From Diadema antillarum (Eukaryota): DNA of 64,000 nucleotides. Location: NCBI RefSeq assembly GCF_040938485.1, contig NW_027270975.1, forward strand, positions 1,302,001-1,366,000. Reading direction: 5' to 3'. The position numbers are program-made. Shown here piece by piece: positions 21,001 to 24,000 of this stretch (its first letter is position 1; each line of letters begins with the position of its first letter).

Positions 21001-24000
21001 ATTTCATATATATATCACATTTTATATCAGTCCTAACACATATTTATGCACATTTGTTAGCAGTGTCTGTGCTTTCTCCACATGGGATTTCCTTGTACAG
21101 TTTAATTGACCTCATTGTGAATGATAACAACCGTAACACATGGCATGAAATTGAAAAACTTTCCATGATCATGTTGGAGTAACTCTTGCATGCATGTGAC
21201 TTTGTGCTGCTACTAGTTAGTCAATCCATACTATATCTTCCAATATGATTAGAATAATTCATAAAGAAAGCAATAAGAGCATAACTGGCAAGTTCACTGA
21301 CATAATTTGGGAAGTCTGCTCACAGTCAAAAGCAATGCTTACCAGGAAATGGAATAGAAAGGCAAAAGAATTTGCTTTGTGCTTTCCATCTAAGCTGAAG
21401 CCACAGTATGAAAGATATGAATGTAAAAATTGTCAAACAAACAAGATCTTTGGCCAGTCTGTGTTCTCAAATTTTACAGTATCATAAACAATCATGAAAA
21501 ATCATGAAGAATATTCAGAGGAAATATTATGTTTGCACTGTTGTATGCCTTCATGGGAATTTTGGTGTTCAAATTAACCCAAAGGCCTAAATTCACAAAG
21601 GTAGTATCAAGAAATTCTGTGGATTAAATTTAGTGCATAAGAACTAAAAGAAGTGCAAAATAAGCATACATTTCACATGTGCATATCAGCTCAAGTTAAT
21701 TATTGGATGTCTGCTGTTGTACTTGATGTGACATGCACATTTATGCACTCAAAATTTGCAGAATTCTTGGACTTTTACCATGACATTCAAACTACCCTTG
21801 TGAATTCCAGCCATATAGTTGCAGTGTTATGTATGAAACTGACTTCTGTATGTATGTATGTATTCACACACCCACATCATGAATATATTTATCTTCTCTT
21901 CCGGTCATTTTGTATCATGATGATGTTGATAACATGGTATGCCACACTGATTAACCTTTCCATTTAATCTCATCCTTCTTCCATGGTCTCTTGACATCCT
22001 TGCTGTTTTTCTTGGTCTGTGTGTGTTCACCCGCCCTTCTCACCTGTGACTTTTCACTCACGCATCCTTCGCCAACCTGCAATATAATCCATCTGTCGTC
22101 ACTACTGACATGATGCACAAATAAAGACGCAGTGATCACCTTGAACAGCAGCAGTTGAGGCGTATCCAAGCACGCAGTGCGCTTGCATCACAGGTTGGCA
22201 TATCGTATGGAAGCAGCTTGATTCAAGCTGGGGCTAGCTCTCCTCATGGTATCAACATGCCCTCCAAGGTCAGCTCTGGTCCTGTCTCCTTGGATTCAGG
22301 CTACGAATCATCCTCGCATCAGACATTATCATCCAATCTCTCATCAGTTGCTCCAGCAGTGATGAGCAAAAACGTGACACGATTTGTTGGAAAGGATGGT
22401 TCTGAAACAACAATTACAAACAGTACAGAACGCAGGAAGAAGACAATACAGGTTTTCCCTGTCACCAACCAGGACGGGTCTCAATCGTATCCATCCATTC
22501 CTGTTACTCAGTGGAAGTCAGATATTGGTGCACAGCCAAATGCTAACTCAGTGTCTCAAGGAAAACCACCAATCAATATCCATGTCAACCCATATGAAGA
22601 AGTTCATGACTTTCATCTGAAGTCACAGGAAAGTAGGATTCCCAATGGAGGACAATACACTGCAGGAAACTTTCCAAAGCAAGGGTCAAGTTCCTCAGCA
22701 GTCTCAGCTGCAGGCCTTCGGTCACCATCGTCAGCCTTTGTGCCTATCACTATCTCCACCTCCACTGCCAGGGATCATGTCTATGACACCTCTATCCTTT
22801 CCTCCTCCTCTTCCTCTTCCACATCATCTCTTCCAGCTCTTTACCATAGTAACCCTCTTCCTCCCCCTCCTCCAACTGGTACTCTTCCCCATCACCAAAC
22901 TAACAGTGGTTATGGGCACCACAACCACCATCACCACCACCAAATTCACCAGTCCAGCCACACCCAGTCTTCCAATAATTGCCAGGATAAGCCGCCACAG
23001 CCTTCCCTCACACAAACCCCTGTCATGCCCTCCAAAGGCCCCAGGGTGGGTGAATATGAGTTTCTACCTCAGGGATCAGTTTCCAAGTCAAATGAGGGAC
23101 CACACTCTGTGGCATCCTCTCCTGCTCACACACTCCTCAAGTCAGCATTCCGGCAGGCTGACCTTCTACTCACTCCATCCAGTGTGCCAGGTCTTTCAAA
23201 CCCTCTCATTCCAAACCAGAGACCAAAAGTTAGCTTCCAACTGGAGGAAGACCACAAGGGGCTCCCACAAAATGGGGTTCCTCCTCAAAAGTTAAATTTT
23301 GAAAAAGAGACTGAACAGCCCCCAAGAGCATCTTCAGTCCCTCCCTCTCTCCCTTCTTATGATTGGGTCATGACCAGGATAAGGGAGCTTCGTAAGGGCA
23401 CTAACATAGACAAGCAAAACACAGGTGAAGAGTTGTTGGGTCAGTCCACTCACAACAGGGGAGAGGTTAGGTCTGAGGGTAACCAGAAAACATCAAGCAA
23501 GGTGCATTTTAGCTTGAGGAATGAGGTAATAGCAGGGAGCAGGGTTGGGCAAGGAAATCGTACAAATGATAGTAAGTCAGAGGTCGTGCAGCCCATTCCA
23601 CAGCGCCCCCACATGTCGCAGTTTGAGAAATTGACAACACTCCCTCCAAAGGGAAATGGACGGTGTAGGACCCCACAGGACACAGGCACCCTGTCCAGAA
23701 AGTCCCATTCTCATGATCCACATCTGCCGACCTCTGGCAATGCCCCTATCAAGACAGAGGATAAAGATCGGTTGAATGTTCATGGCTTCAATCTCCATGG
23801 CAACGATTCTCACAACAGGCAGCAGATGACACCATCACCAGCATCAGTTGTCACACAGCGCTTTTTCCCAAGCAGCCCAGTTCTTCCAAGCCAAAACACA
23901 AATGCAGGGACTTTGGGAAGGATACAACATCCGGAGGAAAGAACACACGTGGTCATGTGGTCAATTCACAGAACACAAGATTTCAGCATCGCGAGCAGCA

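What the first reader, a model, noticed from the sequence alone, without database searches (positions are those of the whole stretch)
21825..22132. 300-nt AG-free zone: distant branch point ahead of the giant exon
Seen: no AG for 300 nt, in sequence where AG otherwise occurs every few tens of bases. The pyrimidine tract begins near 21956, right after ctgat/ttaac branch-like motifs, about 180 nt upstream of an acceptor that has almost no local pyrimidine tract. Two in-frame AGs lie 6 nt apart (AAG 22126, CAG 22132). Established: long AG-exclusion zones mark distant-branch-point exons, which are often regulated by PTB/CELF-type factors. Inference: this exon is a regulated cassette.
Basis: partly seen in the sequence, partly recalled or inferred. 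Interest (0 to 1): 0.66.

Follow-up and report, generated by a model that had tools for sequence, protein, structure and literature searches.

The report
AG-free zone before optional tensin acceptor

Summary
21825-22124 is exactly 300 nt without AG, the longest run in the window that is not caused by N. About 9.5 AG are expected from local composition, and 0 of 200,000 shuffles were AG-free. The run ends at the acceptor (AAG 22126 / CAG 22132) of a 2,476-nt exon of a tensin orthologue from an echinoid-like genome, not human. Sixteen other acceptors of the gene have AG-free zones of 22-112 nt.

The pyrimidine tract is displaced to 21955-22070, and the acceptor itself is purine-rich.

This motif occurs only 4 times on this strand in 64 kb. 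The branch point therefore stays unresolved. I favour several branch sites, proximal and distal, all resolving to the same AG pair.

In three other urchin species, 4 of 6 proteins join the same donor to acceptors inside the exon, and none skips it whole. The acceptor is thus optional through alternative 3' splice sites, not as a cassette.

AG depletion in orthologous introns could not be tested. This is a new member of a known kind, of modest interest.

The parts
18029..19818 (+). Upstream exon (E12, 1,790 nt). It ends ...CAG CTC TAC AGC GG, so it carries two bases of a Gly codon. The donor GTAAGT starts at 19819.
   Evidence: tblastn to urchin tensin P0004/P0005; sequence read; translation
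19819..22132 (+). Intron of 2,314 nt (GT 19819-20 ... AG 22131-32).
   Evidence: contains a 56-nt tandem duplication at 19955-20067
21823..21824 (+). The AG that defines the 5' edge of the AG-free zone.
21825..22124 (+). AG-free zone, 300 nt. It is 306 nt when measured to CAG 22132 with the AAG within 12 nt ignored, as in the published definition.
21837..21843 (+). AACTGAC, candidate distal branch site (A21842, -290). One mismatch to YNYURAY, 18 nt after the last AG, with no tract directly behind it.
21886..21902 (+). TATTTAT (A21891, -241) directly followed by the longest uninterrupted pyrimidine run of the zone (21892-21902, 11 nt).
21945..21955 (+). CACTGAT (A21950, -182, a full YNYURAY match) overlapping GATTAAC (A21954, -178).
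21955..22070 (+). Displaced pyrimidine-rich tract (65-80% Y in 20-nt windows). It includes the UG run 22018-22026.
22103..22109 (+). TACTGAC, a perfect branch-site consensus (A22108, 24 nt before G22132 and 18 nt before G22126). The sequence behind it is 38% pyrimidine.
   Evidence: consensus wording from PMC1431707
22125..22132 (+). Tandem acceptors AAG (ends 22126) and CAG (ends 22132), 6 nt apart and both in phase. The in-frame stop TAA at 22122-24 lies just before them. Purines fill 6 of 8 positions at -10..-3.
   Evidence: Use of the CAG gives a gap-free match to Lytechinus: 8 residues between the split Gly and the conserved RR.
22133..24608 (+). Giant exon (2,476 nt) encoding a disordered Ser/Thr/Pro/His/Gln-rich tensin linker. 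The donor GTGAGT starts at 24609.
   Evidence: no Pfam domain
24500..24501 (+). Internal in-phase AG (codon AGG) at the position where L. variegatus isoform X6 joins the upstream donor. Using it would leave a 107-nt exon.
23751..23753 (+). Codon AAG aligned to the AGR codon that serves as the internal acceptor in 3 urchin proteins. Here the AG is one base out of phase, and a stop follows after 6 codons.
23943..23983 (+). Interval in which the conserved reading frame of the giant exon shifts (one base missing or two extra).

Best explanation
The run is a genuine AG-exclusion zone at the 3' end of a 2,314-nt intron of a tensin orthologue in an echinoid-type genome. The 3' splice signals are spread out. 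One or more pyrimidine tracts with branch-like motifs lie 180-290 nt upstream. A perfect UACUGAC with no tract behind it lies at -24. The acceptor pair AAG/CAG is purine-rich.

I think branches form at more than one place: at A22108, and at one or more upstream sites (A21950/21954, perhaps A21842-21891). The second splicing step takes the first usable AG after the branch, so keeping the whole stretch free of AG makes every lariat resolve to the same AG pair at 22126/22132. Of the pair, the CAG is the more likely to be used.

This acceptor competes with acceptors inside the 2.5-kb exon. Which one is used sets how much of the disordered linker of tensin is made. The weak, spread-out layout is what would make that choice adjustable.

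Shown: the AG-free run and its statistics, the gene and its exon borders, the motifs, and the alternative junctions in other urchins. Inferred: which branch sites are used, that the AG-free state is held by selection, and that the choice is regulated in this species.
For: - AG-free run: 300 nt with 9.5 AG expected, 0 of 200,000 shuffles AG-free, and GA not depleted.
- Same-gene controls: the AG-free zone of 16 other acceptors is 22-112 nt (median 41.5) against 306 here. The 300 nt upstream of those acceptors hold 9-21 AG, against 1 here.
- The part of the zone upstream of the main pyrimidine tract carries most of the signal (5.5 AG expected). That argues for branch use far upstream.
- TACTGAC at -24 is one of 4 on this strand in 64 kb. 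It is the only 7-of-7 match among 17 acceptors; the others reach 4-5 of 7. It is unlikely to be there by chance.
- Precedent for both kinds of branch in one intron: human MBNL1 exon 9 has an AG-free zone of 224 nt and mapped branches at -31, -41 and -229, and the authors note that more than one branch point can be used (PMC2991248, passages).
- Optional use in orthologues: after the shared ...QLRNDG, 2 of 6 proteins continue with the exon start, 3 of 6 with a site 547 residues in, and 1 of 6 with a site 782 residues in.
- P0010 is one open frame across both internal sites.
Against: - No branch point is mapped, and no RNA data for this species were available.
- Gooding et al. estimate that only a fifth to a half of human zones of 100 nt or more reflect distant branch points. 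They describe cases with a good conventional site where the zone seemed unrelated to splicing.
- The 5' part of the zone holds simple sequence ((TGTA)4, CA and ATG runs). This lowers the number of independent A contexts.
- A 199-nt AG-free run with 7.1 AG expected occurs at 49924-50123 with no acceptor-like end, so long runs can arise otherwise.
- The isoforms are the sources' own computed models from other species (names as given).
- In this window the commoner internal site is out of phase.
- AG depletion in orthologous introns could not be examined.
Confidence: 0.5

Rival explanations
1. Proximal branch point only. U2 pairs with the perfect UACUGAC at 22103-22109 and the intron is spliced conventionally from A22108. 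The strong branch site makes up for the missing tract. The AG-free stretch upstream is then a by-product of pyrimidine-rich and simple sequence, or of a protein-binding platform, and not of branch-to-AG scanning.
For: The heptamer is the only 7-of-7 match among 17 acceptors and one of 4 in 64 kb on this strand. It sits at the canonical distance. Gooding et al. describe long zones with good conventional sites that seemed unrelated to splicing. The tract itself expects only 1.7 AG.
Against: AGs upstream of a sole branch site would be harmless. Yet 130 nt upstream of the tract, with 36 A and 5.5 AG expected, hold none, and GA is not depleted. The 23 nt between A22108 and the CAG are purine-rich (38% Y behind the branch site), unlike any other acceptor in the gene.
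Confidence: 0.25
2. There is a single distant branch point at about 21950/21954 in front of the long tract, and the giant exon is a cassette regulated by PTB/CELF-type factors.
For: CACTGAT is a full YNYURAY match followed by 75-78% pyrimidine. This layout resembles the verified distant-branch exons described in PMC1431707. Orthologues do bypass this acceptor.
Against: - TACTGAC at -24 would have to be a coincidence. My arithmetic gives about 0.003 for a 46-nt window.
- The 125 nt of AG-free sequence upstream of 21950 would be unexplained.
- None of the 6 orthologous proteins skips the whole exon.
- UCUU occurs 5 times, and about 4 are expected from composition.
Confidence: 0.15
3. Chance. This is an unusually long AG-free run with no function that happens to abut an acceptor.
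For: Other AG-free runs of 139-199 nt exist in the window.
Against: P(0 AG) is 1.5e-5 or less by three estimates, with 0 of 200,000 shuffles AG-free. The run ends exactly at an acceptor identified independently by homology. That acceptor is also the outlier of 17 for pyrimidine content and branch-site match.
Confidence: 0.05

Closest known systems
Human exons with long AG-exclusion zones and distant branch points (Gooding et al. 2006, PMC1431707; e.g. PTB exon 11, GABBR1 exon 23)
   Same: AG-free zone of more than 150 nt ending at the acceptor. A tract with branch-like motifs lies far upstream. Normal AG frequency resumes upstream of the zone: 119 AG in the other 2,006 nt of the intron. There is an association with alternative splicing.
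   Different: An invertebrate deuterostome gene. A perfect branch consensus also sits at -24. The best tract starts in the middle of the zone, not at its 5' end. The alternative event in orthologues is acceptor choice, not exon skipping. Nothing has been mapped by experiment.
MBNL1 exon 9 and other long-zone introns with several mapped branch points (Corvelo et al. 2010, PMC2991248)
   Same: A long AG-free zone (224 nt there) with both near (-31, -41) and far (-229) branches in one intron. This is the pattern I propose here.
   Different: In that case the branches were mapped in vitro and the exon is a short human cassette. Here the exon is 2.5 kb and the branches are only predicted.
Ultra-long exons shortened through internal 3' splice sites (RBMX-dependent exons such as ETAA1 exon 5; PMC11446547)
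   Same: An internal exon longer than 1 kb that can be entered at acceptors inside it, giving a shorter version of the exon.
   Different: In that work the internal sites are cryptic and repressed in human cells. Here the internal junctions are ordinary annotated isoforms in three urchin species. No RBMX-type link was tested.
Purine-rich 3' splice sites with elements between tract and AG (REPA; Nguyen and Xie 2019, PMC6339879)
   Same: The tract is separated from the AG. Purines fill 6 of 8 positions at -10..-3, which meets their cut-off of 5. That class is tied to alternative 3' splice sites and more distant branch motifs.
   Different: There is no G tract (GGG) here, so it is not their REPAG subclass. 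The spacer is A-rich.
Tandem (NAGNAG-like) acceptors (recalled, not read here)
   Same: Two in-frame AGs close together that would differ by a small in-frame insertion (Arg-Ser here).
   Different: The spacing is 6 nt, not 3. Use of both is untested, and homology favours the CAG.

Membership tests
Distant-branch-point / long AG-exclusion-zone exons (Gooding et al. 2006) | AG-free zone of at least 100 nt (150 for the hand-curated set) upstream of the acceptor, ignoring AGs within 12 nt of it | tested here: met
   306 nt to CAG 22132 with the AAG at -8/-7 ignored; definition read
Distant-branch-point / long AG-exclusion-zone exons (Gooding et al. 2006) | [quoted passage not shown] | tested here: inconclusive
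   CACTGAT (A21950) has a tract behind it but lies mid-zone. AACTGAC (A21842) is at the 5' end but has no tract directly behind it. TATTTAT (A21891) abuts an 11-nt pyrimidine run.
Distant-branch-point / long AG-exclusion-zone exons (Gooding et al. 2006) | No good branch-site candidate at the conventional position (within about 40 nt) | tested here: not met
   TACTGAC 22103-22109, branch A at -24
Distant-branch-point / long AG-exclusion-zone exons (Gooding et al. 2006) | Branch point mapped far upstream by experiment | not testable with these tools
Distant-branch-point / long AG-exclusion-zone exons (Gooding et al. 2006) | AG-free zone conserved in orthologous introns | not testable with these tools
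   No echinoderm genomic DNA is in the open collections. There is only an indirect hint: run-through translations of the intron end in two other urchin records allow 0-5 AG in 99 nt (P0012) and 0-2 AG in 51 nt (P0010).
Regulated cassette exon | Transcripts that join the upstream exon directly to the downstream exon | tested here: not met
   0 of 6 orthologous proteins do so. Two include the whole exon and 4 enter it at internal sites. Isoforms hidden inside clusters could not be listed. This species itself is untested.
Alternative 3' splice-site exon | One donor joined to two or more acceptors of the same exon | tested here: met
   Three junction types follow ...QLRNDG in L. pictus, L. variegatus and S. 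purpuratus. The exon is one open frame in P0010. In the window the distal site (24500-01) is kept in phase and the commoner site is not.
Purine-rich 3' splice site / REPA | At least 5 purines at -10..-3; a GGG for the G-tract subclass | tested here: met
   6 of 8 purines at 22123-22130 (criterion read). There is no GGG, so the G-tract subclass is not met.
Tensin family (host gene) | N-terminal phosphatase-like region plus PTEN-type C2, a long disordered middle, and C-terminal SH2 and PTB | tested here: met
   Window exons match urchin tensin at 77-91% identity in the phosphatase/C2 part. The orthologue P0008 carries PTEN_C2, SH2 and PTB. The window holds the exon before SH2 at 61212-61382. The SH2/PTB exons lie beyond the window.

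The most novel reading that the evidence does not exclude
The layout could be a deliberate two-entry 'funnel'. A tract-less perfect branch site at -24 and tract-associated branch sites up to 290 nt upstream are used under different conditions. The AG-free zone forces both to the same AG pair. Blocking them hands the donor to acceptors inside the giant exon, which switches tensin between long-linker and short-linker forms. If the zone is conserved among echinoids, regulated 3' splice sites of the distant-branch type would predate vertebrates.
Probability: 0.15. Interest if true: 0.5.

Novelty: new member of a known kind. Interest (0 to 1): 0.3.

Why it matters
Long AG-free zones are a cheap, sequence-only pointer to unusual and often adjustable splice acceptors. 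Nearly all worked examples are mammalian.

Here the pointer picks out, among 17 acceptors of one gene, the single acceptor that related species demonstrably bypass. That supports its use for annotating invertebrate genomes.

For gene models it matters in practice. Predictors that look for a branch site and tract in the last 40 nt would score this acceptor poorly. Any new AG within 300 nt could create a false exon start.

For tensin biology it marks the 1.6-2.3 kb disordered linker as the variable part of the protein.

Tried and rejected
- Repeat or transposon origin: blastn of 21700-22200 and of the whole intron against the window found no other copy. It found only chance 13-17-nt matches and the 56-nt tandem duplication at 19955-20067.
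- RNA structure bringing a far branch site close to the acceptor: folding 21825-22140 gave z = -0.20, and 44 of 100 shuffles folded as well.
- Known RNA family in 17000-26000: none.
- Protein domains in eight long open frames of the window: none.
- PTB-motif enrichment: 5 UCUU, about the number composition predicts. No CUCUCU and no UGCAUG.
- Acceptors downstream of 22132 (AGs at 22147-22154): out of phase with the donor (read).
- A longer exon reaching into the zone: excluded by the in-frame TAA at 22122-24 and by the absence of any AG.
- Same-species transcripts or proteins that would show the junction actually used: three protein searches with the exon found only other urchins at 45-52% identity (2 hits each).
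- Orthologous intron DNA: the one open genome collection holds bacteria and archaea only, so I ran no scan.
Every search was exon by exon.
- Supplements of the papers were not opened. Those of PMC2991248 and PMC6339879 may hold per-intron tables relevant to the comparison.

Full report
**What the window is.** The + strand from about 7.6 kb to at least 61.4 kb carries one gene. The long open frame after the finding (22125-24125) matches 'uncharacterized protein LOC129261203 isoform X1' of Lytechinus pictus (P0004, 2,670 aa, E 7e-118, 45% identity). It also matches a protein of Strongylocentrotus purpuratus that UniRef names Tensin (P0005). tblastn of these two proteins maps about 19 exon pieces between 7610 and 32826, at 77-91% identity in the phosphatase/C2 part. 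A Lytechinus variegatus 'tensin-1-like' isoform carries PTEN_C2, SH2 and PTB domains, and its next exon maps to 61212-61382. The contig is therefore echinoid-like, not human. I did not try to name the species. All searches were made exon by exon.

**Exon borders around the finding.** The upstream exon (18029-19818) ends ...TAC AGC GG followed by GTAAGT, so two bases of a Gly codon are carried over. Downstream, the frame opens at 22125 directly after an in-frame TAA (22122-24). The only in-phase AGs are AAG (ends 22126) and CAG (ends 22132). With the CAG, the window has 8 residues between the split Gly and a conserved Arg-Arg, the same as Lytechinus and Strongylocentrotus. With the AAG it would have 10. 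The exon runs to 24608, where GTGAGT follows, giving 2,476 nt. The intron is 19819-22132, 2,314 nt.

**The observation.** 21825-22124 has no AG. AG occurs 3,950 times in the window, on average every 16.2 nt. Apart from the two N runs, this is the longest AG gap (302, against 199 and 177 next).
- The zone has 68 A and 42 G. Shuffling its bases gives 9.5 AG on average, and 0 of 200,000 shuffles had none. Three Markov-type estimates of P(0) range from 1.7e-7 to 1.5e-5.
- GA, the mirror dinucleotide, occurs 11 times, so the lack is specific to AG and not a general lack of purine pairs.
- Split into parts, the first 130 nt expect 5.5 AG, the pyrimidine tract 1.7 and the last 54 nt 2.5.
- Some of the first part is simple sequence ((TGTA)4 at 21847-21863, plus CA and ATG runs), which softens its weight.
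- A 199-nt AG-free run with 7.1 AG expected exists elsewhere, at 49924-50123. Window-wide the event is therefore rare (my estimate is about 0.01) but not astronomically so.
- What makes it convincing is its position. It ends exactly at an acceptor found independently.

**Controls within the gene.** I placed 18 acceptors by homology and reading frame.
- One (27901) abuts an N run and cannot be measured.
- For the other 16 besides the focal one, the AG-free zone is 22-112 nt (median 41.5). The focal one is 306 nt under the published rule that ignores AGs within 12 nt.
- The 300 nt upstream of those 16 acceptors hold 9-21 AG. The focal one holds 1, the AAG itself.
- The focal acceptor has the lowest pyrimidine content in its last 20 nt (0.35 against 0.55-0.90).
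- Purines fill 6 of 8 positions at -10..-3. This meets the 'purine-rich 3' splice site' cut-off of Nguyen and Xie.

**Branch-site candidates.** Four full YNYURAY matches lie in the zone, with branch As at 21929, 21950, 21994 and 22108.
- Further upstream are AACTGAC (A21842, 18 nt after the last AG) and TATTTAT (A21891), which abuts the longest pyrimidine run.
Gooding et al. give UACUGAC as the ideal heptamer.
- TACTRAC occurs 4 times on the + strand and 7 times on the - strand of the whole window. In the -15..-60 region the other 16 acceptors reach only 4-5 of 7 matches.
- The sequence behind TACTGAC is only 38% pyrimidine.

Neither the AG-free run nor this heptamer is easy to ascribe to chance. 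That is why I favour use of more than one branch site. Corvelo et al. mapped exactly such a mixture (-31, -41 and -229) in MBNL1 exon 9, which has a 224-nt zone.

**Is the exon regulated?** A search with the conserved end of the upstream exon returned 6 proteins from three urchin species. All share ...PPILT(N/S)(A/S)QLRNDG, and then they differ:
- Two continue with the start of the giant exon (L. pictus X1, S. purpuratus LOC579673).
- Three continue 547 residues further in, at REEIE(H/R)W (L. pictus X5, L. variegatus X4, S. purpuratus LOC115918345 partial).
- One continues 782 residues in, at PQATSTP (L. variegatus X6).
- None goes straight to the next exon (PNFVDR).

P0010, an unnamed 917-aa record, reads like a run-through translation of genomic DNA. 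It ends in ...SE after the position of the GTGAGT-type donor, and it is one open frame across both internal junctions. The short forms therefore use acceptors inside the exon. The acceptor behind the AG-free zone is thus optional in relatives, but as one of several nested acceptors, not as the edge of a cassette.

These isoforms are the sources' own computed models, and I could not see their transcript support. In the window, the distal internal site is kept in phase (AG 24500-01, codon AGG). The codon aligned to the commoner internal site is AAG (23751-53), one base out of phase, with a stop after 6 codons.

**Other explanations tested.** The zone has no second copy in the window, no unusual fold (z = -0.20) and no Rfam match. 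UCUU motifs are no more frequent than composition predicts. A 9-nt UG run lies at 22018-22026.

**Conservation.** The only hint comes from two unnamed urchin records that translate through the intron end. Back-translation allows 0-5 AG in 99 nt (P0012) and 0-2 AG in 51 nt (P0010). That is compatible with depletion but proves nothing.

**Literature.**
- I read passages of PMC1431707, PMC2991248, PMC6339879 and PMC11446547.
- Searches for tensin with Strongylocentrotus and splicing gave 11 papers, of which I saw 8 listings.
- A search for AGEZ with urchin gave 1 paper, on mammals.
- A search for branch point, polypyrimidine tract, tensin and alternative 3' gave 2 reviews.
- None of the listings describes this feature. 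I judged them by their listings only.
- One search was badly framed and shows nothing.

**Verdict.** The event in relatives is alternative acceptor choice, not cassette skipping. This is a new member of a known kind.

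Noticed in passing
window 23943-23983: The conserved reading frame of the giant exon shifts here. tblastn moves from frame 3 (up to 23942) to frame 2 (from 23984/23996), as if one base were missing or two were extra. The original frame stops at 24123-25. Other urchin records read straight through this region. An assembly indel seems likeliest, but a real lesion is not excluded.
   Followed up: partly
window 15958-16136: The third-longest real AG-free run (177 nt) starts just after the donor of the exon ending at 15929. It ends in a strong acceptor-like site (...tttcctttttcAG at 16135-36) inside that intron, 215 nt before the acceptor actually used (16351). 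No orthologous protein shows an extra exon there.
   Followed up: partly
window 56489-56629: A 139-nt AG-free, very CT-rich stretch ends in ...ttttaatacAG. It lies inside the roughly 28-kb intron between 32826 and 61212 and is a possible unannotated acceptor.
   Followed up: no
window 32818-32832 and 61212-61382: The exon ending ...GGA AA|GTAAGT has a stop (TAA 32827-29) overlapping its donor. Read-through gives the short ...SSLGK end of the L. pictus and S. purpuratus models. Splicing to 61212 gives the ...SSLG-N/S-EGQLPSPGG continuation that leads to SH2 and PTB in L. variegatus. This looks like a choice between two C-termini.
   Followed up: partly
window 18029-19012: The first half of the upstream 1.8-kb exon carries a poly-Gln run and a long Pro-Gln repeat. 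These are absent or much shorter in the Lytechinus and Strongylocentrotus proteins, and tblastn did not align this part.
   Followed up: no
window 19955-20067: A 56-nt unit is repeated twice in tandem (96% match) near the 5' end of the intron.
   Followed up: no
window 27483-27888 and 27889-27901: An N run ends 13 nt before the acceptor at 27901, so the AG-free zone of that acceptor cannot be measured. About 127 residues of the orthologue (2101-2228 of P0004) found no match and may lie in or near the masked stretch. The N run was left untouched.
   Followed up: no
window 7913-7945 and 8653-8655: I could not place a canonical in-phase GT donor for the exon piece ending near 7930 that would join the acceptor at 8654. 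The border of this first mapped exon is unresolved.
   Followed up: no
window 49924-50123: A 199-nt AG-free run (7.1 AG expected) without an acceptor-like end lies in the large intron or outside known exons. It is a useful reminder that long runs can occur away from acceptors.
   Followed up: partly
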